Assembly (NCBI GenBank): GCA_918797485.1
Contig: CAKKNE010000004.1
Location: forward strand, 2,914,001 to 2,978,000
Direction: 5' to 3'
DNA from: Pelagomonas calceolata
Taxonomy: Eukaryota
Length of the DNA stretch: 64,000 nt
Part shown: positions 4,631-50,288 of the stretch, in pieces
How positions within the stretch are numbered: the first letter of the stretch is position 1
Layout: each line of letters starts with the position of its first letter
Translations under genes and position numbers: made by a program
The notes under the pieces: generated by a model
Seen by the model: only the letters and a program-made list of their open reading frames with translations
Database searches by the model: none
What the model was told of the DNA's origin: nothing

Positions 4631-7080
4631 ATGGCCACGCCCCAACAACCGACGCGCGTTGTCGACGGTGCCGTTGTCGACACGCTCGCGCGGCTCCAGC
4701 AGCTCGCCGCGACGCTCGGCGCCACCGACGCGCTCGATTCGCTACCCCAGATTGTGGTCTTAGGCAGCCAATCAGCAGGCAAGTCCTCGACGATCGAATC
4801 GTTGGTAGGATTGTCCTTTTTACCTCGAGGCACGGGCATCGTGACGCGCTGCCCCCTCTTGTTACATTTAAGGCCGAGGGACACGGGGCCGGCGGATTAT
4901 GGGGTGTTCGGGCATGGGGGCGGCGCCCCGATCAGTGACATGGAGGCTATCAGAGCGGAGATCGAGGCGCAGACGGCGAGATTAGCTGGCGATGAAAAAG
5001 ACATTTGTGCTACTCCTATTGTTTTGAGATTGCACGTGGCCGGCGCTCCCTCCTTAACGTTGGTGGACCTACCCGGTGTCACAAGGGTTCCAGTCCGAGG
5101 CCAGCCCGACGATATTGGCGAGAAGATCAAGCGGTTGTGCCAGCAGTTCGCGCGGAACCCACGAGCCGTATTACTTTGTGTGAGTGCGGCGAACGCTGAT
5201 TTGGCTACGTCCGAGGCGTTAGTGTTGGCGAGAGAAGTAGATCGGGCCGGCGATCGCACCATCGGCGTGCTCACGAAGACCGACCTGATGGACCCCGGGA
5301 CGGACTGCGCGTCGATTCTGCGAAACGAGGTCTTTCCTTTGAGATTGGGCTACGTCGCTGTGGTTTGTAGGGGCCAGCGCGATTTGGACGAGGGCGGGAC
5401 TGTTGCGGCAGCGCAATCCAGGGAGCGGACGTTCTTCGCGAATCATGAAGTGTACGGTGCGCCTCGCCATCGAGAGTTGCTGGAACGGAGCTGCGGCATC
5501 GCCGTGCTGGCGCAGAAGCTCTCAGCTTTGTTAGTGGCAGCTACTCGAGAAGCGGCGCCTCATTTAAGACAGGCGTGTCGGGCGCGGCTCGACCAGGTCG
5601 AGAGCCGTGTGGAAATCACACCATCGACGCGACGTTGTCGCCGTGACCGCGTCGGTTCGATGGAACCTCACTGGTTGAATTTACACAGGTGGAGAGCCGC
5701 GCGGCGCAGCTGGGCGAGGAGGACTCGACGGGCGATCCCGCCCGAGTCGTCCTAGAGGCCGTTTTATTATACGCGAAGACGTACGCGACGCTGGCGCGCG
5801 ACGGGGCCGTCGGCGACGCGCGGTGGCTCGGGAATAGCGGCGACGCCGAGCTAAGGGGTGCTGCTCGACTCGCCCACGTCTTTGAACGCGTCTTCGCGGC
5901 GTCGCTGGCGAAGGCCGATCCGTTGGACGGTATTTCGGACGACGACGTGCGAGCCTGTCTGCTGGCGACGTCGGGTGCGTCGCCCGCGCTCTTCGCGCCC
6001 GAAAAGGCCTTCTACGCCTTGGTGCGGCAGCAGATTCAAAGACTGAGGGACCCGGGCCTGGAGTGCGTCGACCTGGTCTGCAGGGAATTGGAAAATTGCG
6101 CGGCACACGTGGCCGAGCCGCCCGTGGCGGACCAGAACGACGTGGTAGGCGCGGTGCCGGCGCCGTTAGCTCGATTGCGCCGGGCGCCGCGACTGCGAGG
6201 CGCGGTCCGCGAGGCCGTCGTCGAGATTGTACGGAAGGAAAAGGACGGCGCCAAGGAACGGGTCGCAGATTTAGTGGCTTGTGAACTCCAACACATCAAC
6301 ACGCGGCATCCGGACTTCGTGGCGGCTCTGTCGGACGTCACTGTTAGATTAGGTTGCCTCTCGGCGCCGTCGGCGGACTTCTCCGACGACGACATCGAGG
6401 ATAGAAGGATCGAGGAGGAGGAGCTCGAGGACACTTCCCCTGCTGAGCCCGAGCGGCGCGGCTGGTTCGGCGGGCTGCGGGGCGACTCCGTGACGCCGCC
6501 GCGGCGGTCGAATCGCCGCGAGTCGTTCGTGCTGAAGGATCAGCTCAAGCCGCGGCCCTACCAGAAGCCGCGGAAAGTCAAAGCGGATCCTTCTCATGTG
6601 GATGTGGTCAAGGCTCTAGTGCGGGCCTACTTCTCCGTCGTGCGCAAGACCTTCTGCGACCTCGTGCCCAAGATTGTGATGACCCACGTTGTCCACAAAG
6701 TTGAAGAGAAGATGCAGGCGACCCTCGTGGGTAGAGTTGCGGGCGCGGAGCACGCCGCTCTCTTGGAGGAGGACGCCGCCACCGCCCAAGAGAGAAGGGA
6801 GACGGCTCGGGCGCGCGACGGTTTGAGGGATGCGCTCCGCTTGCTCGACGACGTCCAGCACGCGCAGACGCCCGTGCGACACAGGGAGCGCGCGGACTCG
6901 CTCGAGGGCGGCTCGAGTCCCGCGCCGCTCACGCACAACAATGTTTCTACAAGAAGGCGGGACCGGTCGCCGGGGCCGCAGGGCTTCGCGCCTTCTCCCT
7001 CAAAGACGCCGCCGCGGAAGGGTGGCATCTCGGGCCTCGTCGCCGCGCGCAAGGAGAACTTCATGCGTGGGCGGCGCTGA
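4631..7080 (+). CDS. Dynamin-related GTPase (Dnm1/Vps1-like); exons 4631-5596 and 5689-7080
   Basis: G1 GSQSAGKSS, LPRGTGIVTRCP, G3 DLPG, G4 TKTD, middle domain (HINTRHPDF) and GED (AYFSVVRKTFCDLVPK); removing intron 5597-5688 joins the two ORFs in frame. Confidence 0.93.
5597..5688 (+). mobile_element. Short introner-derived GT-AG intron (92 bp)
   Basis: Element CCGTGTGGAAATCA...TTGAATTTACACAG (5605-5688) with imperfect TIRs; 8-bp TSD GTCGAGAG/GTGGAGAG; internal CCATCGACGCGACG shared with the long copies. Confidence 0.85.
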
Positions 7081-7144
7081 TCCCTCTATTCCCTTCTCCC
7101 ATCGAGTAAGAGTATTGCTTATGAACAGGGGGTAATAGTATGTA

Positions 7145-9038
7145 TCAGAAGTCCTCCGGCGCCACGTGGACGACCTTCGTGTTTTCGAACTCCTCCTCCG
7201 CCATCATCGCGCCGAAGCGGTCGAAGTAAACGATGACGACTATCATGTAGCACAGCGGCAGAGCGATCATCGCGCCGAGGTCGAGGTAACCCGCGACTCG
7301 ACGGGCAACAATCTCGGACGAGTCGCTCAGCTCGTGCTCCGTTACCAAGTCCTCCAGGCGCACGTTGGCGCCGAGACTCGCACCGCCGCCGCTCGGGGCC
7401 TCCTGGGCCTCCTCGTCGTCGCCGCCGGCTTCGGTGCCAGGGTCCGCAGGAACAACGCGGCGCCTCAGACCGGGACTGCTTAGCATGAGCGTCTCAGCGT
7501 CGCTACTCACATCTTTCCTATCGATGGCCGCTTGGACGCGCCGCAGGACGAAGTCCTTCCGGCGTTTTCTCTCGAGCTTCACAAAGGGCGCGAGCATGAG
7601 TCCAATAATTGGCGAGTGATAGGCCGCGAGACCGTCCGTCTGATAGATGTCTCCCACCAAATCATACCAGACTGGCAGCGTTATGCTCTGCCCGTGAAGC
7701 GATTCCAATTTCTTTCGGAGCTTGAAAAACTTGGCCGAAGGCAGTCCCAACTTTTTGACCGCCTCTTCGACCTCTTTCTTATCGAGCACGCCGCTGTGGT
7801 CGTGGTCCGCCTTGACGAAGGCGCTCACCAGCTCATGCTCGCTCATCACGCCAGTCGAGGTCTTCACGCCGTAGAGCGACACCGACAGCACGGAGACGGC
7901 GAGTGTAGCCCAGGAGAACGAAAACGAGATGACGTGGAGCATGGAGATGATGGTCATATTACCCGTCTTTGGCAGCACCTCGAACGCGACAATATAGATC
8001 GCGGCGCTCGTGAGCAGACACGTGATACCTGCGTGACGTCGGCGGGTGACGCCATCCCCGCGAGACGTCAGCAATTTTAATTTCAAGGACGCCGGGTCGC
8101 ACCGAGCGAGATCCGCTCCCCAGACTGGGGGTTCGCAACGAATGCCAGGAATCCCGCCAACGTGGTCAGTATCATCGGCACGACGAGGCCGTAATTGTAT
8201 GTTTCGCTGTGGCGCCGCATTCGAAACTTGTACTTTATTATCGGGTAGGGCTCAGGACAGCAATCGTAAAAGCCATCAACAGCCGCGGTCCGTACCTCCA
8301 CTAAATCGAACTCAGGATTCGGCTGGTACGACTCAGCGAATTTGAAGGGTATGGGTTCGTCTCCCCCTCTAGGCTTGATGTCGACCTGTAAGCCGTGCAT
8401 ACTCCAGCTGCCGAATTCGAACGTACATTCCTGCTGATCGAAGGGGAACGTCCGAGGCTTCATGGGGCAGGGTAATCTCGATTCGACGGGCACGGACCGG
8501 GCGACATAGCCGCTCGAGTAGACGTTCGGCTGGACGCCCCCAGGCACCTGAAATACGCTTTCCACAGCATCGTAGATGATGGTGTCTGGGATCCAGATCT
8601 GCTTGTGCTCGTCGTTGCCTGCGTGGATCAGTTTTTTCACGCCGACGAGCAGACGCGAAGTTAGTTCTACGCCGCGGCGGTACCGAAGAACGTGAGTTCC
8701 GTGATGCCGCCCCAGTCCGCAGGGTCCCACGCTAATCGAAGATCCGTCCACGAGTGCCGCCACCAGGAGAAGAATTGGATCTCCTGGTTAGTGGTGTCGA
8801 GCTTTTGGAATTGTTGCAGTGCCAACTGCACCGAGACGAGCGCTCCGCGCTCCGAACCAAAGCTCGGCGGTTGTACCGTCATGTCATAATTGGCGAGCAA
8901 GGCCTGTTTGAGCAGGGTCTCGTTCCTTTGCTTGTAGCATTCCGCATTTGTGCAGGTGGTATCGAGAGCTAGGCCGACGGGTCCCCCAGCATGCGCATGG
9001 GGCAGCCCCAGAAGGAGCAGCGCCCAGCTGGTCGCCAT
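7145..9038 (-). CDS. Cys-loop pentameric ligand-gated ion channel, alpha-nicotinic-like, with EF-hand; exons 9038-8684, 8618-8103, 8028-7145
   Basis: Signal peptide; WIPD; Cys-loop CPMKPRTFPFDQQEC; loop B FGSWS; loop C YDCCPEPY; M2 SGERISLGITCLLT; four TM segments; EF loop DHDHSGVLDKKE; collinear with the paralog at 48475-50288. Confidence 0.93.
8029..8102 (-). other. GT-AG intron (74 bp), absent from the paralog
   Basis: GTGCGA...CACGCAG; removal restores ISLGITCLL as in the paralog. Confidence 0.88.
8619..8683 (-). other. GT-AG intron (65 bp), absent from the paralog
   Basis: GTACCG...CACGCAG; removal gives FFGNDEHKQ versus FFGHDEHKQ in the paralog. Confidence 0.88.
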
Positions 9039-9442
9039 GGTGTGCCAAGGGGCAGGATCCCACGTTTTTGACAGTTTTAGACGCAGCCTCCCAGAACACA
9101 CTCGCGAATCCCACGCTTTGACGACAGAGTTTGAGAGTTTGACGACAGGAATGGCGGCGCTGATGCGAGAGCGTGCGCGTGCGGGTCGCGCCGCGCGTAC
9201 ACGCGGCTTCAGCAAGTGTCAGCGAGGGTGATGTGATGATACGTACCTATGGAATGATGAGGATTTAAGGGAGCTGTTTGAAATGGCGCTGAATTGGCGC
9301 TGCACAAGCTGCCATTGCGGCCGCCACGACGAGAGGTGTGAAGCCGCGCGGGCAGCATAAGTGCGCTGCCCGGACAGCGTTTCATCGAGCGACGCGACGA
9401 ACCAATACGACTTTGCAATTGTGATATGGCAGCGCATGGATA

Positions 9443-10456
9443 ATGCCAGCCTCTGCTGATGAATTGGCTGATCTGGAGGCCCGGCTCCTAGCCAAGCAGC
9501 AATTACAGTTCGATGCGCTTCAGAAGCGACTGCTGGGCAGCGTCGCCGCGCCGACGGCAGAGGAGATCGACCAGCCCTTTGCCGAGTATGCTCGGAATTT
9601 TTATGTGACCGCCGCTCTGATGCTCTGTCTCGTCGCATCGACGGTCTACCTCGCGTTCATCACCGCCGGGCTATACGGTAATGTGAGCCAAGTCACAATG
9701 CTTGCCTTCATGCCCTTTGTATATACAACGGGCTTTGGCCTCGTCTTCACTACGCTCGACTGCGAGATAGCAGGGAGGCGGGCTGTGCAGCTAGTTCGTG
9801 GATGTCACATCGGCATGATGCTGGCTGCACCAATTGTTTTTTGGCGCGCCGGCGAGCACGGTGATGCTTTAGTAATGTTCTTCTCGTTCGCATTAGATTC
9901 CATTTTATATCCCTGGCTCCTCAAAACTATCTGCGGACTCCTGAGAACGCGGTACGAGGGTTCGTTAACCGCCCAGGCGCAGTTTTACACCAGTCGAGCG
10001 CTCAAGATAGCCGGGTTCCAACTCGTGCTGTCCGTGTCCGCGGCGGCCCAGGGAATTGATGGGCTTGATACTTTTCCTCGGATTTGGGCAACGTTGACTT
10101 TTAGCACTGCGCTCCCACAGGTGTGGATGTTCCTGATTGGGGTCTTCGACGCTTGTGGGGTGGACCACCACGCGGCAGCTAAGCTTCGGGTCTCTCCCCT
10201 CCAAGCTGCGGCGCTCGCCTCTTGTGGCGCGCTAATCCTCTCGGGTTTGGCCGGGTACGTGCTGGCTGAGCAAAGGGACCCGAGCGAGAAGGCGGCGAGG
10301 CTCGTTATGTACGTGATGTTTATCGCGGTGTACCTTTGCATGCTTTTCGTCGGGAGGCTCCTTTGTGGCGCCCGTAAAACGATCTCCGGCGCGTCCCCGA
10401 GCGTGAAGCCGAAGCCGGCCGGGGGATTGGATGTGTTCGATATCCCCGGGGCATAA
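9443..10456 (+). CDS. Multi-pass membrane protein of unknown function
   Basis: Short N-terminal coiled coil followed by roughly 7-8 hydrophobic segments; 337-aa ORF filling the space between neighbours. Confidence 0.75.
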   Translation: MPASADELADLEARLLAKQQLQFDALQKRLLGSVAAPTAEEIDQPFAEYARNFYVTAALMLCLVASTVYLAFITAGLYGNVSQVTMLAFMPFVYTTGFGLVFTTLDCEIAGRRAVQLVRGCHIGMMLAAPIVFWRAGEHGDALVMFFSFALDSILYPWLLKTICGLLRTRYEGSLTAQAQFYTSRALKIAGFQLVLSVSAAAQGIDGLDTFPRIWATLTFSTALPQVWMFLIGVFDACGVDHHAAAKLRVSPLQAAALASCGALILSGLAGYVLAEQRDPSEKAARLVMYVMFIAVYLCMLFVGRLLCGARKTISGASPSVKPKPAGGLDVFDIPGA

Positions 10457-10486: not shown

Positions 10487-13400
10487 CTAAGTGTCCACGA
10501 TAACCGTCGCCGGCGGCACAGCGAGCACTGCGGCGACGCCTCGGACAATGAAGAACGGCTGGTCCAGCACCTTGCCCGCGTCGCGTTCCGGTCGCGAGAG
10601 GCATTCGGACGCCGTCCGATTTCGCTCCGCGGTATTTTCGTATGCTTTCAGGTTGATCCAGAACAGAACCTCCGTGTGGCGCGTCGACGCGAAGACGGGG
10701 CAGCGGTACACGCCTTTTGGCGAGAGTCTTTCGGCCTCCTCGTCCTCATCGAAGAAGGCTTCTCGGGCGAGGGGAATGAGACTGACCACCGGCGCCGGAT
10801 CAAACGGCCCGTCGATGCGTTCGCACTCCCGCAGCGCCCCGCCGTCCGGCGCGAACTGGTCCCAGCGCGCGCCCTCTATCGTCATGCCCGTGATTGATAC
10901 GACTAGTTTGGGTGGCTCGACCGGCATTTTCTCATCTATGAGATCATCGCCGGGCGTCGCCGCGCGGCTCGCGGCCGGCGTCGACGCCCGCGACCGGGAC
11001 ACCTCGTCGCCCTTGAACGAGTCGAGGTCGCTCTGATCATCGTCCTCTTCGGGCTTGGCCCGCGAGTCGAGCCAGACCTCGTCGAGCGGGACGCCCCAGT
11101 GGCGCGCCGCCTGCAACCGCACTGCGTGCACAACGGCAGCTGGTTCCGCGAGTAGATCTAAAGGAATAGGACTCGGCGGCGCCAGGGCTTCGTACCAACC
11201 TGTGAGCAACCGCGCTCTGGCTTTCACGTGGTCGAACCAATCGCCGAGCGAGGCCATCGTTTCCGGTGGCGCCGATGCGTTGCGCCAGGCCGCGGGTATT
11301 TCGAGGCGCCGCAGCGACGAAGCAACATCTCCCAAACGTAGGCGCTCCTCGTCACTCGCTGGCGCCGAGCCCACGAGCGAACTTTGTAAAGCAGCCACGT
11401 CCGCGAAGACTTTGGAAGCCAAAATACGCAGTCTATCACGCTCCCGCAGCAATATCCCGTCGAACTCCGTCGGTGGGTCCGGCGCCTCGGTATAATCAGG
11501 CTCATCGGGCTTCGCATTTTTTGTGCGTCGCGCCCAGGCGCACGCGGCCTTGAAGGCCTGTTCGCGCCGCTTGGTGCACATGGCCACAATATCTTCTTCG
11601 ACGGAACCGACGGCCGCTTTCACGTCGGGCCTCGCTGCAGCGCCGGGCGCTTCGTCGGCGACGGGCGCATCGTCGGGCTCCAAGGACACCTGGCGGGGCG
11701 CCTCCTCGTCGAGCCTGGGCCCGAAGACGTCCGCCGCCTTGAAGCACAGGTCGAGCGTCGCCGCGAGCCGGACGTCGTCGAGCACGGTCTCGGGGAAGTA
11801 GGAACCGGCTCGTGCCGCCTTTGACGTCGCTGACGCAGATTCAGCGCTGCCGCGAAGGGCAGCAAGAATGGGCGCACCGCCGACCTCCTCCGCAGCTCGT
11901 TTCTCGGGCAGCTCCGCCGTCGTCCACGTCGTGGCGTCCTCGGGCCAATCAAGCAACTGCTGTGCTTTCGTCGAGCCGATCGACTTAGCGACGAATTCCA
12001 GCAACCGCTGGTCCACGTCACCGCCACAGCTAGTCGCTCCGATGCCCACAATGAGAGTTTGCAATTCCTTCCACCTCCCGCCTTTGACGGCGCGGCCGAC
12101 GGCTTTGAGCAGCGACCGACGGCCCGGCGGAGTAATTTCGGGCGCAATAAAAGGCCAAACGCCTTGGATGGCGTGAGAAGCCGCCCCTGAGAGTTGCGAC
12201 ACGCCGCCACCGTTCCAACCCAGGGACCCGAGGGCATCGCGCCGCTCGCCGCAGACCGCCAGAGTCGTCGCGCACCGCAAGGCCGCTTCTGATATGCCTT
12301 CATCATCACCAACGAGTGACGTCGTGCGTTCGACGGACTCGGCGAGCGTCCGCGGCGCGTCGAGCGCGACGACGGTCGACGCCGCGAGCAGCGCCTGCGG
12401 CACCGCCTTGACCGACGGCGCGGACACCAACCTTAGCGATGTGAGCGAGTCGACATGTGACTCCTCGCTAACGTCCTCGACGACGCTCAGCCAGAGCCGG
12501 AAGGTCGCGTGCGCCGGTTTGCCCGCGACGCCTCGCTCGACGAGCGGCTGGTCGACGGCGGCCCAAGCCACCGCAGATAGGATTTCAGGAGATGCAGTTG
12601 CGCAGTCTGTCACCAGCAGCCAGGCGCCCTCCGAGGCCGCCTGGGCGACCGCGCGGGCCGCGTGCGAGTCCGCGCCTACGACCACTAGCCTAACGCCGTT
12701 CGCGTCCGCGACGCGCTGCAGCGCCTCGCGACCGTCGTCGGCCTCCGGCGAGACGCGCAGAATGATAGGCGGTGCCGATTCGTCGTCCAGTGAAGCTGCT
12801 TTTTCGAGGGCAGAATCTTCCTCAGCTTGACCGAGCTCGGCCGCCGCGAAGGCCTCGAGCGCCGCAGCTAGCGCGTCGAAGCGGACCGCGCGTATGACGC
12901 AGAGCCGCTGCAGCGGGGTTAAATCCGCGTACGGGCTCGGGAACTCTTCATCATAAGGCGTCGCCGACTCCAGGACCTTCTCCCAATTATCGAGCGTCTT
13001 CTCGAGCCCCGCGAGCGCTGGAAGTGTGCCGCAGGCCTTGGCTCGTGCCCGCGCGTCCGCTGCGAAGAGCCAGTGGCCGCAGCGCGTCTCGTTCGGTAAC
13101 GACGCCCGGCGCGCGAGCTTGAGGTCTTCCAGCCGCCGTTTCGCGCCGCCGACGAGATTATTCCCACTCTTGAGCGCCATGAAATCCTCCTCGACCGGAT
13201 CCGTCGCGGGCCCGACCTCGCCGGTAAGCACGAAGCGCCATTCATCTCGTTCGGCGTCGCTCCAGTCCGGCCGGGCACACAAGCGCGCCTTGAGCGCGGT
13301 GAGTTCTTTACTGAGACATCCGCGGAGCGCCACCGCCGACGCCGCCCGGACGACGGCTTTACGAACTGCGGCGACGCGTTTGTGGACCTTCTCTTCTTCG

Positions 13401-15775
13401 TTTTCTTTCGTAGGCGCTTTGGGAGGCAGTCGCGCCGGCGTGTTGAGCGACGCGATGGCTCGACCGGCGCTCTGGAAGAGGAGATCCGATCCGATGGCGA
13501 GGCACATGGCCCCCAACCGCGCCGCGACCGGCCTTAAAGGTGCCAATGCAATCCTCCCTTGCCGGTCCTCCTCCCGCATCTCCGCCAGCTGCCCCCGCTT
13601 GAACCCCAGGTCCTTGATCGTCTCCTCGGCGTCCATGAGCACCTCGCGGTCGTCGAACAAATGGGCCGCAATGCCGGGACCGCGGCGATCCCTGCCGCAG
13701 AGCTTCCAGACGTGGACGTGCTTGCGCATCTCGGCCTGGAAGTCGGGCTTCGCCGCGGCCAGGCGCCCCTCGGCGTTTTTGAGTTCCTCGGCGATCGCAT
13801 TCGTACCGATCGCGTCGTGATCTCCTCCAATCGCCTCGCCGTCCGTCGGCGCCGCGCAGGTGACAAGGGCGCCGAAGAGCCGGTCCTCGGCCGCTTGGGC
13901 TTGGCGGTCCGCCACGGCCCGTTTGAACGCGAGCCGATCCAACGTGCTTGCTAGGGACGGCAGCTCGTGCTGCGCGACGCACTCCCACATGGCACGTGAA
14001 GATAACGCCGCACTCGGGTTGATCTTGACGACGTTGCAGCAGCCTCGCAATCTCGCAGATATAGAATCATCATCTGCAATCAGAAAGAGGTTGAAATTTT
14101 TCGGAGCTACCGCCCGGCCGCCTTGCACGACCGGGAGGAGCTCGAAGGGCAGCAGCGCCTCCCCCACTCCCTCGACGATGAGCCAGTGGCCATGCAAGGC
14201 GTCCGCGAGCGTTTCACTAAAATCCGCGTGCCCTATCCGGCACGAGAGCACGCCCGGCTCCCGCTCGCCCGTCTCCTCGTCGACGAACGTGCCGCGCTGC
14301 GGCCCCGTGGCGACGGCGCATCGCATGATGAACTTCCGCGCGACGCGCAGCGGGTCGATCAGTAAGGGCCACCGCGCGCACAGTAACGTGCAGGCCGCCG
14401 AGACGCCGCTCCCGGGCTCGTCGGCGTAGACCGCGCCCAGCCGCCACTCGAGCGTATCTCTCAAAGCGCCGAGCGTCGCGACCGTCAACGCGTCCGGGTC
14501 CTGGTCACCATGGGAAGGTTGTTGCGGGGCGTCCTCGAGCGCCGCCGGTTCGGATAGAGGAAGCACCTCATCGATACGCTTCCGCCACGCCTCCCAGAGC
14601 TCTAAGCGCTTCTCTAGATCGAGGCTCCCGAGATACGCGCCGGCCGCGCCCGCGAGGAGCGCGTCTCGACATGCATTCTCGCGCGCTGCTTTCAATCCCT
14701 CATATTCACAAGCCCAGCGCACGGCGTCGGCCGTCAGAGCCTCGGCGAACTGCACGGCAACCGTGGACCGCCGCTCGGCAATACCCTTCGCGTCGCCCTG
14801 GGCGAGGCTCGTCTCCTTCGCTTTTCTGTTCGCTTCGTCCAGATCATCCATGCGCTGCGAGATGGCCCCCAGCTCCTCGCGGCATGAGTCCTGCGTCGCC
14901 GCGTCTCCACTCTTCAAAGCCGCGGTCAACTCGTCGTTGAGCTCCGAGGCGCGGCCCTCGAGCGCTTCCCGATCCGCTTTCGCCTTGGCCGCGGCTTTCT
15001 TCTGCTGCGCCGCGATTTGCCCGGCGTTCGCCGTCGCCCACTTGAGCTGCGCCGCGGCCGTCTTCGCCGCGCGCCAGCACGTGAGCGCGCTATTCAAACG
15101 ATCGAGGCGCCGCCCCGTCTCCGCCACCCTCGCTGTATGAGCGCGCGCCGCGTCCCGCAGGAACGCGTGGAAGTGGCCCGGCGTCGCTTTGACATATTTC
15201 GCTGATATCGTGTGGAGGTCCGCCGCGAGCTGCGGCGCGTCCTCTGGCCACTCGGTTAACATAGAACGAGCCAGGTCCGCGCGCGCCGCGGCGTCATCAG
15301 ATCCGCAGCGCACGACGCACGCCGATGTAAAGAGAGCGGGCTCGCGCGCGGCCAGCGCCGCCGTCGCGCGGTTGTCGTCGCCGACCGTCGCGCAGACGAC
15401 GACGCGCAGGCGGCCACGGACGCGCGCCGCGCGCGCCGCGGCTTTCCCCGTGCGACTCGCATCGAAGTCGTCGTCGTCGGCCGTGGCCGCGGCCTCATCA
15501 CAAACCATGGCGGCCGCGAGCGCGCGCCACGCCGCGGCGTCGTCGCCGAGCTCGTCGTCGCCCACGACGATCGTCAATAGGTGCTGCTCGGTGGCTTCTG
15601 TTGGAATTTCCGCCGCTTCCTTCTTGGCGCGCTTTTTCTTGCCCTTCTTGCGAGCCTTCCGGGCCGGCGAGGGCGTCCGCGCGCGACTCTTTTTGGGTTC
15701 TGATTGAGGGGGCGCCGGGGCCGCCGCCTCCTCGACGGCCGGCGCGGGCGCGGGCGCCGGTGATGGTGCTGGCGC

Positions 15776-15807
<32 letters not shown>

Positions 15808-18800
15808 GCGCCGGCGCGTCGACGACCGGGGCCTCGTCCTCGATGACCGTGGGGAGGGGCGGCGGCACCGGCGGCGGCTTCGGCAGGCCGACGGGGCTCG
15901 GCTCGACGTCGCCGAGGCGACTTAAAGCCTGACACAGCGCCTCGCGGAAACTTGATGAGCCCTGCGTCCTTATTAAGTCCGACGCCGTCATGACCTCGCC
16001 GCCGATCAACCGGCACGCGAGCCGCGCGACTGTGCGGCGGCCCGACGCCGCTCCACCTAATAAAACGACGTGACCGCCCGGCCGGCGCAGGCACCGCGCC
16101 ACGCGCATGACGTCATGGATACACCGACTGACGGGATGCGCTATTGAAACATCCTCCCGCAGGGACTCCTTCACAAATGCGCCGTGGCAAAGCTTTGCGC
16201 GCGCGGCCGCCGCGTAGACCGGCGTCTTTTCTAAGCGAGCGTAGGCGCGTCGAGGTGGTGCCGCTTCTATGAGATAAGGCTTGGCCCGGGGCGGCGGAAT
16301 GTACGACGGCACCGACTCCTCGTCGACCGTCGACGCCTCTCCTCTTAATTTCCGCATGACATCATCCACCCCATCGTCGCGCAGCTCCGTCGTGAAGTAC
16401 GGGTCCGCGCCGAGCTCTCCCTCTTCTTCATCCGGCAACACCATGTCGCAAAAGTCAAGTTCTGAATCTTCGGGCACAATCGTCGAAAACTCCTGGCCGC
16501 CCAGCTCCTGCGGGCCCTCTTGAGATGCGGCGTCCTTCAGGAGGTCCTCGAAGTCGGATTTTGAGAATGAACCCGTCTCTGATAATCTATCCGCGAGGCA
16601 CCGCCGACACTCGTGCGCCCAGAGCCGCGTGAGCTCGGCCGCCTTCGACGGTGGAACGAGCAAAAACCCCTGCAGGATTCTTACCAAATCTCGTCGTCCG
16701 TACTGCAGGCCGCCCGTGTCCAGGACAACTTGTTGAGAAGAAGCGGGCTGTACCAAACCGCGGGCAACTTTGGCGCACTGCTGCACGAGCTCCACTGTGC
16801 ACCTCGCCAAGGCATCGATCGTGCGTGCCGGTTGACCTACTACGACGGACGCGAAGGCCGTCGCCAGGCCCAGCGCGCCCTCATCATCAACACGCAGCAC
16901 GCACATCCTCGACGCCAGCCGCGGCGCGATCTCCTGGAAACACCAGGGCGCGTGGCGCACCTCGCCCCTCTTCTCGACTCGATCAAAGTCGAACGGCAGC
17001 CCGTCCGACGCCGTGGCGACGACGGACACGTCTTCCAGTCGCATCGTACCCTCTCCAGTCGTATAGCTCTGCGCGTCGAGCACCTGTCTTACAAACTCCG
17101 ACGGCCCGCGCGGTAATAAAGCGACGTCGTCCATTCTGACAAATAAGGGTCCACCAATACCACCGAGGACGCCCCGCCGCCGCCGGTCGAGGCACCGCTC
17201 GAACGCACTCCGCAGATCCGCGGCCGTCGTGCCCAATGACGAATACACCGCACACGCATCGAAGGGCCGTTCGGCGGGCGGCAGTTCGCCGCGCCCCGGC
17301 GGCAGAACTACCGGCTCGGCACCCTCCAGGGCCTCGAGGGGCGCCAGCTCTATTTTCATATAGGCGCCCTCGGTGACGCCCGGCTTCTTCTTCTTCTTCC
17401 TCTTCTTGGGCGACTTTTGTGCCTGTGCTTTGAGCTCCTCCTGCGTCGTGATCAGCGCGCGGTCGAACTGCGTCGCGACGCCGTCGACGCAGCCCAACAA
17501 ACCTTGGAGCGCGGCCTGCGCCCCAGCGACGGCGTCGCCGTCGCGCATGCCGTCTATTAACAAGACCGAAGCGTTGCTGCACATGGCGAGCCGCGCGAGC
17601 CGCGCCCCGGCGGCGGCGGCCGGCGTCGGCAGGTAGATGGCACCGCAATGGTGTGTCGAAGGAATCGGGAGAGGAGGCGCCCGGGAGACCTTGGGCAAAC
17701 AGTCCGCCCACGGCACCCAGCGAGCTCTTCCAATATCGAGGCAGTAGCCATAAAGGTTGTCCTCCGGCAGGGGCGGGTAGAAGTCCACCAAAGGCCGCGC
17801 CTTGGCCACGAACTCCAGCTCGAAAGCAAGGCGCTCCTGCTCGGGTTGCACCGAGCCAACGGCCCACAGGAGCGCCCAGGCCACCGCACTATTCACGACC
17901 TCCGGCGCCCGCGCGCAGGCGCGTAGCGGGGGCAGCGGCGCGCCGGGCCGCGGTCGTAGGGGAGCGAGTAATAACCCATCCAAAAGAGCGACGAACGTCC
18001 CCGCGCACGACCCGCTCGCATGCTTCTGGAAGGCGCACGGCGCCAGCAGCGCTATGGCGGCCTGGAGCTTTGACTTGAGGGAAGGCATCGCGTCGGCCAT
18101 GACGTCGTCGACCAAGAGCGCAACTCTAGAACTCACGTCGAGCGTCGCATCATGTGAAGCGTAGTGCACGACTTGCAGCCGATTGATGAGCGCGGGCGAC
18201 GCGTTGGACAGGTCGTCCGTCTCGACGATGATGCGCTTGTCCATCATTGAGCTCCGGTGCGCGCCCTGCGCCGTCGGCGCCCCTATGTTATCAAGCGTCG
18301 CGCAGAGGACATCTCCAATCAAACCGTCAACAACACCATCGACGACGACGGTCTCGCACGTCTCCGACTCTTGCCACTCTCGGATCCGGTTCAAGTGCAC
18401 GTCGACGTGTTTCGTCCGCGTCCGGAGGACGGCGTCGAGCGCGTCCGGCGAACTGAGCGCTTGCGGGTAGACGCGCGTCGCCTTTAAAGAACGGAGTGCG
18501 CGCGACTTGCCGCAGCCCGCGGGTCCGACGACGCAGACGGCGCGCTTCGCTGCGAGGGCCTGCCGCGCCGCGACCAGCACATCAATGGCCTCGGGCCGCG
18601 GGTCGCAGCCCGCCTCGACTAGTTCCTGCCGGGCAGCTTCGCGGCCGTCGTCAGTGTCGTCCGGCGGTGCCACGTCGCCGCTCCAGTCGGCGAAGGCGTC
18701 CCGGACCAACTCGCGCACTAACAAAGAAGCGTTCTCCGAGGTAGATGCAAGCTTGAGGGCGACCTTGACGAAGGCGGCCGCGACAAGTTGACCGTCGCCG

Positions 18801-21800
18801 CGCGCGAGCGCGTCCTCGTCGTAGGCGGCGCGCGCCGCGGCCGCCGCGTTCACGCACGCGACCACGACGCGGACCGGGCGCGCCGACGCGAGCGCCGCCA
18901 ACGCGGACCACGCGGCGGCGCCTTCGTCCGACCCCGTCCGCGCGGCGGCGGCCGCCCAGCTCGCGTCACCTAGAAGTCTGATGGCGGACGCGAGCCGCCG
19001 GCCGCCGTCGATCGCGCCGGCCGACGTGAAGCCGTGCGCGGCGAGCGCGAGCGCCGCGACGCGGTGAAGGTCGGGCGCCGTCCGCAGAATTGGCCGCGCC
19101 CGCGCCGCCAGCGCGGCTGGGAACCGCGTCGGTAACCCGTCGAAGCAGAGGATGACCGCCGGGCCGTCTTCTCTCGATCCGGGCGGGGGCCGCCGGTGCT
19201 TCGGGCCGTGGGCCTCGTGGGGATGATGCGCCTCCGCGCGCGTCGCGTTTTCCAGTGAGGCGAGGTGCTGCGCCAGCGATGCGATCACATTAGAAGACGC
19301 CCTGGCGACGCCCGCGAGGACTAACCACAGACCGCCGTTCTCGAGGCCCGTGCAGACGCGCCTCAACAACGATTCGTCCACGTCCATGCAGTGGAGGCGG
19401 ACGACGGGCTGCGCCAGCATTTCTCCTAATTTCTCCGCTAGGCTCCGTTTGCCGGTGCCACCGCTGAGTGACGCAGTAACACCAACTCGCAGCGCCGCCA
19501 GAATCTCGAGCATGCATCTTTCACAATTCGGCGTGATGAACAGCGCCTCGCCCGCCGCGCCCCCTCGGTACTCGTCGCCGCAGAAGCGGCGACTCAACGC
19601 CGCCTCGGCGACGACGCGCCCCGCCTCCACGCCGTCCATGGCGATGGCCGCGGGATTCTCGAAGTAGAACCTCAAACGAGCAGCCCAGGCGAAGTCCTCG
19701 CAGGAAGCACACACGCTTTCAATTAACGAATCCGCCGCGTCTCGACCTTCGACCTCGAAGGCCGCAAAAGTTTGCAATTTCTGGAAAGTGTGCCTCGCGT
19801 GGTTTTCTTTCAGGCGTCGCGCCACGGAGTTGATGCGTACGAGTTGCCTCCTCTTTAACTCGTTCGTGCCCACGAAGCCTCTGTCCGTCAACAAACCCTC
19901 GGCCTCCGCCGTGAAGGCGCACCGCGCCGCCAGCAATCCAGAAGCCGCCTGCTGTTGTAAACACCAGGCGCCTCTCCCTGGTTCCTTGAGCATGGCCTCG
20001 GCAGAAGCTTGCGTCAGAGCTTGCACGGCCTCTTTCATACCTTTCTCGAGCTCGTTCAGCCACAACTCACAACGGCCGCCGGCGTCCACATCCTCGGTCT
20101 TCGCGAGTTCCAACGTTTCATGGATATCTTCCTCGTCAAAGGTCGACAGGTCGGCCTTCTTCGCGTAGGGCTCGTGCCGCGCGACCAACGCCTCGATCCT
20201 CAGCGAGTCTCCCACAAAACGGACGTCGGAAACGCCCGGGAAGCACAACACGACAGCTTTCCTCGCTCGTCTTTTCGTTTCGCGGGGGTCCTGGTCGGGG
20301 TCGCCGATCAACAAATCCCACAAGTCTTGTTCCGAGACCATGCAGAGCCGCGCGCAAGCTAATCTGCGAGCTTCCGCGAAGTCATGGATACCGCGCGTGG
20401 CCTCTTCCACATCAATCAAAGCGTCTTCTAATACGTTTTTCAGAGGAGCAAGTCGATCTTGAACTTCAATCACCCTCGCGCGGCCATTCACGCCCTTCGC
20501 GGCAGCACAGCACTTCGCGAGGGCCCTGGTGACTTTCGAGAAGGTCGCCGCCTCGTGGGGCAGCTGCTTCCTTAGGGCGTCGCCGCCGGCGGCAAAGACG
20601 GTAGCCAGGGCCTCCCACTTCCCTTGGACGGTCGCCCACCTTTCTAGCGTTTCCTCGGCTGCGCGCAATCGCGACGCGAGGTTCTTTACAGAAGCGTCGG
20701 CCATGACCGAAGGCGAATTGTCTCCTTCACCTGATAACGGCCCCGTGCGGCAGGCGTCGAGCTCGACCAGACACGTGTCGAAGGCCCTGAACAGCGCCTC
20801 CAACTTCACAAGCTTGTTGCCCGCGACGACGACCTTGGGGTCCTTCATCTTGCCGCTCTTGGCGCGCTCCGCGGGCCTTGTGACTTGGTGAGGCACGATG
20901 TCCAAGAGCTGATTGTTCCAGACGGCCTCGAGGCGGCGCGCCAGCGCCAGGGCCCGGCGGCACCTGTGAGCAGCGTCCGCGAGCCTTGCGACGGCGTGGC
21001 GGTTCTTGACTAAGGAATCGGTGATCCTCCGCACTTCGAAGCCCCTACCAAGAGGAAAGCCTAATAAAGCAGCGAGCTCGGCGCCCCACATTTCGAGGGT
21101 CGAGCACTCGTCTCCTTTTACAACCCAGTCCCGGTCGCCGCCGGCCGCCAGGCCCTTCACCACATAAGTCACGGCGTCGACGACGGGCTTTGCTCGAAAC
21201 GCCGCGGCGTCGAGCCCGCCCTCCAAATCTTGAACACATCGCGCTAGCCAGACCTGGCGCTCCGCCGACGCGACGACGCGCGCCGCGATCAATGACTTCG
21301 TCCAGGCCGGGCCCGCCGGCGCGTCGACGAGGCGGTCGACGTCGCCGTAACTCTCCCTGAGCTTTCCCGCGCCGCACCAGTCGCAGGCCGCGACGACGGC
21401 CGGGTCCTCGCGCGCCACGAGTCTCTCATTAAAAGCCTTCTTCGCGTTCGCGGCGTCCAGCAATGCTTGCCGGTCCGCGAGGATTTTCCCGCCGCGCCGC
21501 GCCAAGTCATAGGTCGGCTGCAGGTGGGCCAGGAAGGCCTCGTCGCGCGCCTCGCCGAGCCTCATGCTGGCAAAGGCGTCCGTCGCCTCGACGTTGTGCT
21601 CGCCAGCCGCGGCGAGGAGGCGGTGGGGCTCGAAGGCGTCGACGAGCGCTTCCAGAGAATCCGCCGGCGTCGGGTCTTTGCTGAGAATGCCCTCGCGCCG
21701 GTTCAAGTCGGCAAGTTCCTGCGTCAGCGCCTCGATGCTCTCCTGGGCGTCCTTGCAATCAGTTGACCGTTTCGCGACGGCCTTCAAGGCCCCGTCGAAG

Positions 21801-25819: not shown

Positions 25820-26337
25820 GGCTGTGTATTTATGTGTGCGCTTACTATCACTGCTGCCTTGATTTATGCGATGCGGCGCTGCCTGCTTGGCTCTCAGCTA
25901 AGGCAGCACTGTGCTCGGCCGACTGCGCTTCTGCGCAGGAATCGACGAGCGTGCCGCAGGAATGGGAAAAGTGGCAAAGGGCAGCGTCTCCCGCACGACT
26001 GCCCGCCCTCCCGTCCGCAGAGCTGTGGCTTTTTGCACGGCGCTGAATCAAAGGTACGGGCTGCGCTTTCTTGCGGTGAAAATCCCCGATCGCAGGTGTA
26101 AATCTACGTCTCGAAACGTGCAGCCACCGGTCAAGGATCAACAAGCAGGGGACAAAACCAAGCGTCTTTAGCGCCTCTGCTCTCCGAGACGCGCGCGGCC
26201 TCTGTCCGCGTCGTCGGGCTGCCCTCGACGAGAAGTCGACGCGCCACAACACCTATCGCAGTCGCGTCCCGCTGGCTGCCCGCAAGGAGTCACAAGTTGG
26301 AACCCCTGTGGCTGCCCAACCTCTTGCAAGCAGCACC

Positions 26338-48357: not shown

Positions 48358-48368
48358 CTACGCCCTGC

Positions 48369-48403
48369 AGGGGCTCCGCCCACTAGTCCTAGCACCGTAA
48401 CAT
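48369..48403 (-). other. Conserved 35-bp post-stop element, copy 3
   Basis: AGGGGCTCCGCCCACTAGTCCTAGCACCGTAACAT. Confidence 0.65.
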
Positions 48404-48474
48404 CGACGCCCTGCAGGACGAATCTACTAAGATTATACGAGCAGGGGGGTGTATCGAAGGAAGTGTCGGAAGTG

Positions 48475-50288
48475 TCAGAAGTTCGCCGGTGCCACGTGGT
48501 TGATCTTCGTCCCCTTGAACTCCTCTTCCTCCGTCATCGCGCCGAAGCGGTCGAAATAGACCTGCGGGGGAATCGGGTTGAAGGAGAGAAGTTGCGCCGA
48601 GAAATGACACGGGGCACGACGATGACCACGATCATGTAGCACAGCGGCAGGGCGACCATCGCGGCGAGGTCGAGATATCCCGCGACGCGCCTTGCGACGA
48701 TTTCCGACGAGTCGCTCAGCTCGTGGTCCGTGACGAGATCTTCGAGGCGCGCGCCGCCGAGGCCTTCGCCCGGGGCCTCTTCGTCGCTGCCGCCAGCTTT
48801 TGTGCCGGGTTCGGGAGCGACGGCTTTCGTCGACGGTTGGCGGCGCCTCAGGCCCGGACTGTTCGACGAGTTTGCTTCCGACATGGTGCTTTCGCTGAGG
48901 TCCTTCTGGTCGTTGGCCGCCTGGACCCTTCTTAGCACAAATGCCTTGCGTTTGCGCCGTTCGAGCTTCACAAAGGGGATGAGGATGATCCCGACGATAT
49001 ACGAGTGATAGGCCGCTAGGCCGTCCGTCTCGTAGATGTCGCCCACAAGATCGTACCAGACCGGAAGCGTTAATCGCTGTCCGTGGAGCGAGTCCAGCTT
49101 CTTTCGTAGTTTCTGTAGCTTAGCTGGTGGCAGTCCTAACTTCTTGACCGCATTCTCCACCTCTTTTTTGTCGAGATCGCCGCTTTCATCGGTGTCGGCC
49201 TTCACGAACGCGCTGACCAGCTCGTATTCCGACATCACGCCAGTCGAAGATTTCACGCCATAGAGCGATACGGATAGCACGGACACGGCGAGTGTCGTCC
49301 ACGAAAACGCGAAAGAAAGAACATATAGCAAACTAATAATCGTCATATTACCTGTCTTCGGCAGCACCTCAAACGCCACAATGTAGAGCGCTGCGCTTGT
49401 GAGCAGACACGTGATCCCGAGCGAGATGCGTTCCCCTGATTGTGGGTTTGCCACGAACGCCAGGAACCCTGCGAGCGTCGTGAGGATCATGGGCACGACG
49501 AGGCCGTAGTTATACGTCTCGCTGTGACGCCGCATTCGAAACTTGTACTTTACTATCGGGTAGGGTTCCGGACAGCACCCGTAAATGAAATCAATAGCTG
49601 CAGTTCGTACCTCCACTAAATCGAACTCGGGGTTCGGTCGGTACGAGGCAGCGAGGGTAAAAGGCGCGGGTTCGTCTCCCCCTCTAGGCTTGATGTCGAC
49701 CTGGAAGCCATGAGTTGACCAGCAACCAAATTCGAATTCACATGTCTGCTCGTCGAAGGGAAACGTGCGCGGCTTCATAGGGCAGGGTAATCTCGTCTCG
49801 ACAGGAACGGATTGCCACACGCCGCCGCTCGAGTACACGTTAGGCTGCACGCCGCCTGGTACCTGAAACACGCTTTCTACCGCCTCGTACACGATTGTGT
49901 CCGGGATCCAGATCTGTTTGTGCTCGTCGTGGCCAAAAAACGTTAACTCGGTGATACCGCCCCAATGATCCGGATTCCACGCTAATCGAGGATCCGTCCA
50001 CGAGTGCCGCCACCACGAGAAGAATCTTATCTCTTGATTCGTGGTATCGAGCTCTTGGAATTGCTGCAGCGCCAACTGAACCGAGACGAGTGCGCCGCGC
50101 TCCGAACCAAAGTGGGGTGGTTGTATCGTCATGTCGTAATTAGCGAGCAGCGCTTGTTTGAGCAGGGTCATATTACGCTGCTTGTAGCATTCCGCATTTG
50201 TGCAGGTAGTGTCGAGGGCCAGACCGACTGGGCCTGCCGCGTGGGCCAGTGGAAGCGCGACGAGGATTAGCGCTGCCCAGCCCGCCAT
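48475..50288 (-). CDS. Cys-loop ligand-gated ion channel paralog 2 with EF-hand; exons 50288-48621 (or 48618) and 48561-48475
   Basis: CPMKPRTFPFDEQTC, FGCWS, YGCCPEPY, SGERISLGITCLLT and EF loop DTDESGDLDKKE; splicing restores the tail VYFDRFGAM...HVAPANF matching paralog 1. Confidence 0.93.
48562..48620 (-). other. GT-AG intron (59 bp, or 56 bp with donor at 48617), absent from paralog 1
   Basis: Pyrimidine-rich ...TTCCCCCGCAG acceptor; removal restores homology with 7145-7235. Confidence 0.8.

What the first reader, a model, noticed from the sequence alone, without database searches (positions are those of the whole stretch)
7145..9038. Alpha-nicotinic-type Cys-loop receptor in an alga with an EF-hand in the M3-M4 loop
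Seen: a true C-x13-C loop; vicinal cysteines in loop C (FYDCCPEPYP); aromatic-box equivalents in loop A (IIYD), loop B (GSWS) and loop D (FSWW); M2 start SGERISLGIT; a canonical 12-residue EF loop DHDHSGVLDKKE, conserved in the paralog as DTDESGDLDKKE. Known: vicinal loop-C cysteines define nAChR alpha subunits; SGEKISLGIT is the alpha7-type cation-selective M2 entry; pLGICs occur in some protists, and animal nAChRs have no canonical EF-hand in this loop. Inference: a cation channel gated by a quaternary-ammonium or sulfonium ligand (choline, betaine or DMSP-like) with built-in Ca2+ feedback.
Basis: partly seen in the sequence, partly recalled or inferred. Interest (0 to 1): 0.8.

Follow-up and report, generated by a model that had tools for sequence, protein, structure and literature searches.

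The report
Algal nicotinic-type channel with calcium sensor
A marine single-celled eukaryote, likely an alga, expresses a gene built like an animal acetylcholine-receptor subunit that also carries an EF-hand module on its inner side, shared with a large and apparently undescribed family of plankton channels, so it is likely a chemical-sensing cation channel predicted to detect calcium inside the cell and adjust its own opening.

Summary
The gene is an intact 584-aa Cys-loop subunit on the minus strand; RNA reads confirm both introns. It has the C-x13-C loop, vicinal loop-C cysteines, all five aromatic-box residues and a cation-type pore.

The 'EF loop' is half of a calmodulin/centrin-like EF-hand pair placed about 10 residues after M3: EF1 is canonical, EF2 degenerate. 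AlphaFold models the pair at pLDDT 90-94 in a close orthologue.

The gene belongs to a diverse marine clade (100/98 support with the EF columns excluded) that lies apart from animal-like nAChRs. Of 38 non-redundant members, 34 keep the module, and Ca2+-ligand positions are conserved while neighbouring positions vary.

Best reading: an onium-gated cation channel with built-in Ca2+ feedback. Ligand, Ca2+ binding and the sign of the feedback are untested.

It is not unique in databases. EF pairs lie elsewhere in the same loop of an Emiliania alpha-type subunit and five Aureococcus anionic-type subunits in the supplementary alignment of Jaiteh 2016, whose main text does not mention them. Eight literature searches found no description. 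New variant of a known kind; interest 0.7.

The parts
8684..9038 (-). Exon 1: start codon, likely signal peptide (aa 1-17), N-terminal part of the ligand-binding domain with loop D
   Evidence: (Neur_chan_LBD E 2e-14); signal peptide inferred from the hydrophobic N-terminus
8619..8683 (-). Intron 1, GT-AG, 65 nt
   Evidence: 25 reads in X24; contigs X3, X8
8103..8618 (-). Exon 2: loops A, E, B, C, Cys-loop, M1 and start of M2
   Evidence: (LBD E 1e-24)
8029..8102 (-). Intron 2, GT-AG, 74 nt, inside the M2 coding sequence
   Evidence: 7 + 28 reads; contigs X3, X8
7145..8028 (-). Exon 3: rest of M2, M3, EF-hand pair, long helix, disordered stretch, M4, C-tail, stop
8757..8765 (-). Loop D W92-W93-R94 (W92 = alpha7 W54 in 9qto numbering; R94 in 46 of 46 clade rows with a residue there)
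8572..8574 (-). Loop A Y134 (= alpha7 Y92)
8425..8469 (-). Cys-loop C169-x13-C183 with FPFD
8404..8406 (-). Loop B W190 (= alpha7 W148)
8242..8271 (-). Loop C with Y236, vicinal C238-C239 and Y243 (= alpha7 Y187, C189-C190, Y194)
7976..8118 (-). M2 pore helix: -1' E, 0' R, 2' S, 6' T, 9' L, 13' A, 20' E (cation-type signature; Ala at 13')
7871..7948 (-). M3 helix (aa 318-343)
   Evidence: (hydropathy)
7745..7840 (-). EF-hand 1 (aa 354-385); canonical 12-residue loop D365-E376 at 7807-7772
7643..7738 (-). EF-hand 2 (aa 388-419), degenerate loop; conserved beta-strand and W411
   Evidence: canonical in 2 of 34 relatives
7511..7618 (-). Long basic amphipathic helix after the EF pair (aa ~428-463); equivalence to MX or MA not established
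   Evidence: helix 359-395 of P0054; inconclusive
7220..7297 (-). M4 helix (aa ~535-560)
48475..50288 (-). Paralog, 81% identical over aa 21-552, same architecture with EF1 loop DTDESGDLDKKE; one probable intron near the 3' end (not confirmed by reads); weakly covered by RNA reads

Best explanation
This is an expressed alpha-type Cys-loop receptor subunit of a marine protist, likely a pelagophyte alga, predicted to form a pentameric cation channel that a small onium compound would open, with an EF-hand pair fused just behind M3 that likely binds cytosolic Ca2+ and would feed back on gating, most likely by damping it. Steps: (1) Shown: spliced, transcribed gene; nAChR fold; intact five-aromatic box with vicinal cysteines; -1' Glu and 20' Glu pore; EF pair at a fixed position with selectively conserved Ca2+ ligands. 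(2) Inferred from family knowledge, about 0.8: five subunits (mostly this one, perhaps with the paralog) form a Na+/K+ channel, probably Ca2+-permeable, at the plasma membrane. (3) Inferred, about 0.6: the agonist is a quaternary ammonium or sulfonium compound (choline, betaine, acetylcholine- or DMSP-like); the box cannot tell these apart. (4) Inferred, about 0.8: EF1 binds one Ca2+ per subunit and EF2 is its structural partner. (5) Inferred, about 0.6: because the lobe hangs on a 10-residue tether from M3, in the region where the 5-HT3 MX helix tunes gating, Ca2+ binding shifts gating; negative feedback (faster desensitisation after the channel's own Ca2+ influx) is my preferred sign.
For: - Gene and expression.
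- Family and fold: Pfam LBD 146 bits and TM 28.8 bits for the paralog ORF; best solved relative human alpha7, E 2e-40; AF2 model of orthologue P0054, mean pLDDT 88.9, matches alpha7 at Foldseek E 1e-21 and muscle nAChR at Z 27.2, rmsd 4.9, 351 aligned.
- Box residues align with alpha7 W54, Y92, W148, Y187, Y194 and with the five positions that cage betaine in ACR-23 (PMC11377560, passages).
- EF1 in 34 non-redundant members: D1 34/34, D/N3 31/34, S/D/N/T5 32/34, G6 32/34, L/I/V8 34/34, E12 29/34. A full strict loop in 26/34; entropy 1.18 bits at side-chain ligand positions against 3.17 at the others.
- pN/pS against 9 wild loci: 0.04 for EF1, 0.025 for the membrane helices, 0.52 for the disordered stretch (loci not independent).
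- An EF-only profile hits centrin (6e-8), CDPK and calmodulin. AF2 gives helix-strand-helix twice at pLDDT 90-94, and the same pattern in a shallow low-confidence model.
- P0165 has both loops canonical and P0151 only the second, which shows that the unit is a pair.
- The post-M3/MX region modulates gating in 5-HT3 (PMC9354082, abstract).
Against: - No functional data.
- EF Pfam scores pass the curated cut-off in only 3 of 37 proteins scanned.
- EF2 is non-canonical in 32 of 34, so cooperative Ca2+ sensing is doubtful.
- 8 of 34 members miss the strict EF1 loop; P0095 (dropped by the 70% redundancy filter) has a broken one; 4 of 38 members lack the module. The channel lineage can do without it.
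- The family set came from a profile that contains the EF region, which favours EF-bearing hits.
- A -1' Glu does not guarantee Ca2+ permeability: ACR-23 has -1' Glu and 20' Asp and passes no divalents.
- The ligand-binding domain is the fastest-changing folded part among wild relatives (pN/pS 0.29), and this copy has Ala158 where 41 of 48 clade rows have Phe or Trp. Both fit a varied ligand range.
- The link of the post-EF helix to MX was not significant.
- The model is a monomer and gave no coordinates, so closeness to the pore was not measured.
Confidence: 0.5

Rival explanations
1. The EF pair is a structural or docking module. It is permanently metal-loaded (Ca2+ or Mg2+) or serves folding, assembly, trafficking or partner binding, and does not regulate gating on a signalling time scale.
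For: EF2 is degenerate in 32 of 34. The hydrophobic core (F361 34/34, L357 31/34, W411 31/34, G385 32/34) is as conserved as the ligands. The module is lost in 4 of 38 members. Post-M3 residues in 5-HT3 are also needed for folding or assembly (PMC9354082, abstract).
Against: Side-chain ligand positions, including the bidentate Glu12 (29/34), are conserved over great divergence while neighbours vary. At least one loop of the pair is usually kept canonical. EF pairs recur at a second position in other algal Cys-loop subunits.
Confidence: 0.25
2. Ca2+ acts positively: the channel is a coincidence detector or amplifier that needs, or is potentiated by, cytosolic Ca2+ in addition to an external ligand.
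For: Same anatomy as the best explanation. The pore has Ala at 13' in 30 of 45 clade rows against Val in 71 of 98 others, a weaker hydrophobic gate that could be easy to open allosterically (inference). EF-hands are needed for gating of plant TPC1 (PMC11085791, passage).
Against: The orthosteric box is fully kept, so ligand gating remains under selection. Positive feedback on a Ca2+-permeable channel in a very small cell would be hard to end (inference).
Confidence: 0.15
3. It is a diversifying environmental chemoreceptor for something other than an onium compound (primary amines, amino acids, alkaloid-like cues); the nicotinic look of the box is ancestral.
For: Ligand-binding domain pN/pS 0.29 against 0.025 for the membrane part, with loop E and loop C variants among wild relatives. 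Mosaic identity along the gene suggests recombination. Loop D Arg is invariant in the clade (46/46 against 44/102 outside) and there is a clade-specific loop E aromatic.
Against: The five aromatics and the vicinal cysteines do not vary in those relatives. Loop D Arg is common outside the clade too, so it is not diagnostic.
Confidence: 0.2
4. Artefact: an animal contaminant, a pseudogene, or a chance EF-like string in a disordered loop.
For: The best named hits are animal receptors; EF Pfam scores are below cut-off.
Against: Spliced poly(A) transcripts; flanks syntenic in 7 of 15 marine metagenome loci; its own clade at 100/98; strict motif in 10 of 100,000 shuffles; fixed position in 34 of 34.
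Confidence: 0.02

Closest known systems
Human alpha7 nicotinic acetylcholine receptor (PDB 43sn, 9qto, 7koo, 9iir)
   Same: Best solved relative by sequence (E 2e-40) and by Foldseek; Cys-loop, vicinal loop-C cysteines, five aromatic-box residues, M2 entry identical at 9 of 10 residues, -1' and 20' Glu.
   Different: About 22-30% identity. No EF-hand pair behind M3 in any animal-like row examined; Ala at 13'; Arg two residues after the loop D Trp. A separate clade in the tree, so not an alpha7 orthologue; acetylcholine gating untested.
Nematode ACR-23 betaine receptor (PDB 8zfk; PMC11377560, passages) and DEG-3/DES-2 (PDB 22qs; choline response recalled)
   Same: Alpha-type box that cages a quaternary amine other than acetylcholine, using the same five positions; cation pore.
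   Different: More distant than alpha7 (E 2e-26). No EF module reported in the passages read; ACR-23 passes no divalent cations.
Cationic-type Cys-loop receptors of protists (Jaiteh, Taly, Henin 2016, PMC4795631), e.g. Emiliania huxleyi R1D0D9
   Same: Non-animal Cys-loop with cation signature. R1D0D9 has vicinal loop-C cysteines, a Gly-Glu-Arg M2 entry and an EF-like pair in the M3-M4 loop (supplement part 113). P0226 and P0234, sister to the focal clade, show the same layout.
   Different: Their EF pair lies late in the loop, just before the MA/M4 helix; here it follows M3 directly. The focal EF profile scores those pairs at about 0-5 bits, below unrelated EF-hands of a dynein-like gene (up to 18.5 bits), so common origin is not supported. 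The paper's main text has no 'EF-hand' or 'vicinal'.
Anionic-type Cys-loop subunits of Aureococcus anophagefferens (F0Y9D2, F0YBJ5, F0YCK2, F0YEV4, F0YFN1 in the Jaiteh 2016 alignment)
   Same: Pelagophyte Cys-loop subunits with EF-like loops inside the M3-M4 loop (read by eye).
   Different: Pro-Ala-Arg anionic pore, no vicinal cysteines, EF pair just before M4.
Centrin / calmodulin / CDPK EF-hand lobes
   Same: Helix-loop-helix pair with a short two-stranded sheet; canonical first loop; Leu-Gly linker.
   Different: A single lobe fused into a channel; second loop degenerate; below the Pfam cut-off.

Membership tests
pLGIC (Pro-loop) superfamily | Neur_chan_LBD plus Neur_chan_memb above Pfam cut-offs | tested here: met
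   exons 54 and 87 bits; paralog ORF 146.2 and 28.8 bits
pLGIC (Pro-loop) superfamily | F/Y-P-x-D loop, pre-M1 Arg, M1 Pro, M2-M3 Pro (Jaiteh 2016, section 7) | tested here: met
pLGIC (Pro-loop) superfamily | Beta-sandwich ECD plus four-helix membrane domain | tested here: met
   predicted for orthologue P0054: (Z 27.2); hydropathy
pLGIC (Pro-loop) superfamily | Pentameric, ligand-gated ion conduction | not testable with these tools
   needs expression; a pentamer exceeds the limits of the complex tool
Cationic-type Cys-loop receptors | C-x13-C loop | tested here: met
   C169-C183
Cationic-type Cys-loop receptors | Gly-Glu-Lys/Arg at -2' to 0', no -2' Pro | tested here: met
   G285-E286-R287; 10 of 45 clade rows have Ala, Gly or Ser at -1' instead
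Cationic-type Cys-loop receptors | Measured cation selectivity | not testable with these tools
   electrophysiology needed
nAChR alpha subunits | Vicinal cysteines in loop C | tested here: met
   C238-C239; 45 of 46 clade rows with a residue
nAChR alpha subunits | Five-residue aromatic box (loops A, B, C, C, D) | tested here: met
   Y134, W190, Y236, Y243, W92
nAChR alpha subunits | Descent within the animal nAChR radiation | tested here: inconclusive
   own clade (100/98), with non-animal-like groups beside it (99/94); but midpoint-rooted, no anionic outgroup, and only 2 of 33 outside rows are named animal proteins. It works like an alpha subunit; I do not file it as an nAChR.
nAChR alpha subunits | Gating by acetylcholine or nicotine | not testable with these tools
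   the same box serves betaine in ACR-23
nAChR alpha subunits | MX helix directly after M3, and MA helix | tested here: inconclusive
   the EF pair takes the place after M3; profile tests of the following helix against MX were not significant
EF-hand (calmodulin-like) lobes | 12-residue loop with ligands at 1, 3, 5, 9, 12, Gly6 and hydrophobic 8 (EF1) | tested here: met
   D-H-D-H-S-G-V-L-D-K-K-E
EF-hand (calmodulin-like) lobes | Paired helix-loop-helix with a short beta-sheet | tested here: met
   predicted, pLDDT 90-94; profile hits centrin, CDPK and calmodulin
EF-hand (calmodulin-like) lobes | Second loop competent for Ca2+ | tested here: not met
   degenerate here; PROSITE-like in 2 of 34 relatives
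EF-hand (calmodulin-like) lobes | Pfam EF-hand gathering score | tested here: not met
   19.2 against 25.4 bits; 3 of 37 relatives pass, 26 of 37 hit at E<=0.01
EF-hand (calmodulin-like) lobes | Measured Ca2+ binding | not testable with these tools
   needs ITC or NMR

The most novel reading that the evidence does not exclude
Marine phytoplankton have their own ancient branch of nicotinic-type receptors, with a full alpha-subunit binding site, that sense algal osmolytes or infochemicals (betaine, choline, DMSP) in seawater and regulate themselves through a fused calmodulin-like lobe. Algal Cys-loop channels, cationic and anionic, acquired such Ca2+ sensors more than once, a mode of regulation not described for any pentameric ligand-gated channel.
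Probability: 0.3. Interest if true: 0.9.

Novelty: new variant of a known kind. Interest (0 to 1): 0.7.

Why it matters
Jaiteh et al. (2016, passage) state that no biological role was known for any pentameric ligand-gated channel of a unicellular organism. This gene is intact, expressed and conserved in wild marine populations, and it gives precise predictions (an onium ligand box, a cation pore, one Ca2+ site per subunit) that an oocyte experiment and a binding assay on a 75-residue fragment can test.

If true, it would give a molecular receptor for chemical sensing in open-ocean picophytoplankton. It would show that the alpha-subunit site with vicinal cysteines is not an animal or synaptic invention. 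It would also add an intrinsic cytosolic Ca2+ sensor to a channel family whose intracellular loop is mostly disordered, and so offer a folded intracellular domain for structural work on how that loop couples to the gate.

Tried and rejected
Genome and taxa
- No genome was held, so the copy number outside the window is unknown.
- Naming clade members mostly failed: three cluster look-ups (30 proteins) gave one MMETSP transcript (P0140) and one Picozoa label for a non-member (P0015). A third homologue search with a divergent alignment returned 7 proteins, none with an informative name. A second Atlas query did not complete.
- No relative in viral contigs (0 of 72 candidate stretches) or prokaryotic genomes (0 of 33); both scans use short exact patterns. 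P0117 found nothing in viral contigs, so the idea that the P0117/P0242/P0123 group is viral is untested.

Structure
- The first AF2 model (9 sequences) had pLDDT 43 and was not searched.
- Whole-chain fold searches list no EF-hand protein because the channel domain fills the list; this is inconclusive.
- BLASTP of the EF stretch against P0165 gave no alignment. The single-sequence PDB search of the EF stretch was weak: best E 5e-6, summed over repeats.
- 'The helix after the EF pair is MX' and 'the early and late EF pairs are one module' were both tested and not supported.
- The complex predictor was not used: a pentamer does not fit, and Ca2+ cannot be the scored partner.

Ligand
- 'Loop D Arg proves a carboxylate ligand' was rejected. 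It occurs in 44 of 102 outside rows, and in ACR-23 the betaine carboxylate is held by a loop C Cys and a water.

Literature and earlier notes
- Motif searches in the gapped Jaiteh alignment were uninformative for absence.
- Earlier-findings look-ups by sequence and by the full word set were empty.
Full report
Gene. The finding is a minus-strand gene of three exons (9038-8684, 8618-8103, 8028-7145) that gives 584 residues without an internal stop. RNA confirms both GT-AG introns. Intron 2 is skipped in 7 and 28 reads of X21 and X24 (one sample), intron 1 in 25 reads of X24, and both in full-length contigs of X3 and X8; read orientation fits a minus-strand transcript. A paralog lies 41 kb away at 50288-~48475, 81% identical over residues 21-552. 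It is thinly covered in the same four runs (depth about 1-4 against about 10-50); the runs were chosen with the first gene, so this is only a hint. No third copy lies in the window.

Organism. No genome was held. Spliceosomal introns, poly(A) RNA, and dynamin and dynein-like neighbours show a eukaryote, and marine metatranscriptomes hold the stretch. GC of 64.6% and a dispersed 204-bp repeat fit a pelagophyte such as Pelagomonas (63% GC, introner-sized introns of about 210 bp; PMC9481584, passages). This is an inference.

Channel anatomy. Pfam finds the ligand-binding and membrane domains. The best solved relative is human alpha7 (E 2e-40 for the paralog ORF). By alignment, W92, Y134, W190, Y236 and Y243 correspond to alpha7 W54, Y92, W148, Y187 and Y194, and C238-C239 to the vicinal pair. 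M2 has Glu -1', Ser 2', Thr 6', Leu 9', Ala 13' and Glu 20'. An AF2 model of the orthologue P0054 (88% identical over residues 72-584; 144-sequence alignment) has mean pLDDT 88.9 and matches nAChRs by Foldseek (E 1e-21) and VIA (Z 27.2, rmsd 4.9, 351 aligned).

The EF module. Ten residues after M3 the model shows helix-strand-helix twice at pLDDT 90-94, a calmodulin-like lobe spanning residues 354-419. The first loop is canonical and the second degenerate. A five-sequence profile of this stretch alone hits centrin (6e-8), CDPK and calmodulin in the PDB. A strict loop arises in 10 of 100,000 shuffles of the intracellular loop. Pfam EF scores are below cut-off here and in 34 of 37 relatives scanned, though 26 of 37 hit at E<=0.01; this may be why the architecture is overlooked.

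The family. Homologue and profile searches gave a diverse set of mostly unnamed proteins from metagenome and sequencing-run assemblies. A FastTree on the ligand-binding domain and M1-M3 only (150 of 180 rows; 30 dropped for under 70% coverage) grouped 48 rows at SH 99. IQ-TREE on 62 chosen rows (29 clade, 33 others) gave 100/98. The clade is one side of a branch, with other non-animal-like groups next to it (99/94). The tree is midpoint-rooted and only 2 of the 33 outside rows are named animal proteins, so the placement outside animal nAChRs is likely, not proven.

Conservation in the family. I took 51 members and fragments that reach the EF site; 10 clade rows that end or break off before it were left out. 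After a 70% identity filter 38 remained: 34 carry the module and 4 lack it. In the 34, D1 is 34/34, D/N3 31/34, S/D/N/T5 32/34, G6 32/34, L/I/V8 34/34 and E12 29/34. A strict loop is matched by 26; ligand positions average 1.18 bits of entropy against 3.17 for the other loop positions; the loop starts 76-81 residues after the 0' Arg in all 34. P0165 has two canonical loops and P0151 only the second. Against this: 8 of 34 are imperfect, P0095 (removed by the filter) is broken, and the search profile contained the EF region. Against nine wild loci, pooled pN/pS is 0.04 for EF1, 0.11 for EF2, 0.025 for the membrane helices, 0.29 for the ligand-binding domain and 0.52 for the disordered stretch. 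All pairs share the window gene, L004 and L005 are near-copies, and L002 and L008 may be another paralog.

Mechanism. Shown: anatomy, expression and conservation. Inferred: a pentameric cation channel (0.8); an onium agonist (0.6); Ca2+ binding at EF1 (0.8); Ca2+-dependent change of gating (0.6), with damping the preferred sign. The ligand cannot be read from the box. ACR-23 cages betaine with the same five positions and, despite Glu -1' and Asp 20', passes no divalent ions (PMC11377560, passages), so Ca2+ permeability is also open. The loop D Arg (46/46 in the clade, 44/102 outside) and a loop E aromatic (41/48; Ala in this copy) are clade traits of unknown meaning. The region just after M3 tunes gating and assembly in 5-HT3 receptors (PMC9354082, abstract only), which makes coupling plausible and also feeds the structural rival. 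Whether the long helix after the lobe is MX was not resolved.

What is known. Jaiteh et al. 2016 (PMC4795631; abstract, passages, sections 5 and 7, and supplement parts 106-109, 112, 113 and 181 of 201) report cationic- and anionic-type Cys-loop receptors in protists, including Aureococcus and Emiliania. Their main text has no 'EF-hand' or 'vicinal'. In their alignment I saw 11 of 12 Aureococcus rows wholly or partly. None showed vicinal loop-C cysteines or an EF pair right after M3, but five anionic-type rows have EF-like loops just before M4. Of 6 of 29 Emiliania rows seen, R1D0D9 is a cationic subunit with vicinal cysteines and an EF pair late in the loop, like P0226 and P0234 in the sister group. 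The unread rows and the two supplementary PDFs, which were only term-searched, may hold more. The ESM Atlas top cluster (score 0.97, 83 members, LBD 99%, EF-hand_6 95%, commonest Haptophyta among 6 with a phylum) also shows the fusion; I cannot tell which EF position it represents. The focal EF profile scores the late pairs lower than unrelated EF-hands, consistent with separate gains.

Literature coverage. Eight searches of the open library gave no paper whose title or abstract opening describes EF-hands in a Cys-loop receptor; three of them returned none at all. Of the 16 papers holding both 'EF-hand' and 'Cys-loop' (15 listed) I read passages of one, PMC11085791, where the terms are unrelated; the rest I saw only as listings. 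Subscription journals were not searched.

Verdict. It works like an nAChR alpha subunit; I file it as a cationic-type protist Cys-loop receptor of an apparently undescribed clade defined by an EF-hand pair directly behind M3. Novelty: new variant of a known kind. Interest 0.7; confidence in the whole mechanism 0.5.

Noticed in passing
Jaiteh 2016 supplement rows F0Y9D2, F0YBJ5, F0YCK2, F0YEV4, F0YFN1 (Aureococcus) and R1D0D9 (Emiliania); P0226, P0234: EF-hand pairs at a second position, just before MA/M4, in both anionic-type and cationic-type algal Cys-loop subunits; suggests repeated gain of Ca2+ sensors.
   Followed up: partly
P0147, P0157, P0160, P0165, P0172, P0180, P0182, P0183, P0203, P0225: A subgroup of the EF clade has Ala, Gly or Ser instead of Glu at -1' while mostly keeping the vicinal cysteines: a possible switch of ion selectivity.
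   Followed up: no
L004, L005, L007 against window 7000-7600: Wild syntenic copies are 97-100% identical to the window at 7200-7600 but mostly 82-90% over 7600-8600; suggests recombination or gene conversion. Loops E and C vary among copies.
   Followed up: partly
L003, L009, L008; P0013, P0104: Intron presence differs: L003 and L009 read through both intron sites. L008 holds pieces matching the window's 204-bp repeat. P0013 and P0104 show read-through of an insertion, probably an intron, inside the EF1 loop.
   Followed up: partly
window 29730-29933 and 57823-58026: Two 204-bp copies, 91% identical, of an introner-sized element.
   Followed up: no
window 10487-25897 (-): A 5,136-codon open frame for a divergent dynein-heavy-chain-like protein (Dynein_C hit) with four N-terminal EF-hand loops.
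   Followed up: partly
window 4631-7080 (+): Dynamin-family gene whose 3' end meets or overlaps the 3' end of the receptor transcript near 7100.
   Followed up: no
window 9425-10456 (+): A 343-aa multi-pass membrane ORF with no Pfam match, divergent from the receptor gene; only thinly conserved in some syntenic loci.
   Followed up: no
P0181, P0182, P0151, P0015: Other fusions among relatives: SAM domains (P0181, P0182), a CHB_HEX_C/Fn3-associated domain (P0151), and a Picozoa pLGIC with an N-terminal EF-like loop (P0015).
   Followed up: no
P0117, P0118, P0242, P0266, P0123: A short-loop alpha-type group lying between the animal-like rows and the protist groups; may relate to the giant-virus receptors in earlier notes, but a viral scan with P0117 found nothing.
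   Followed up: partly
window 48367-48407: A short element shared with many other transcripts (many loose ends) just downstream of the paralog's stop.
   Followed up: no
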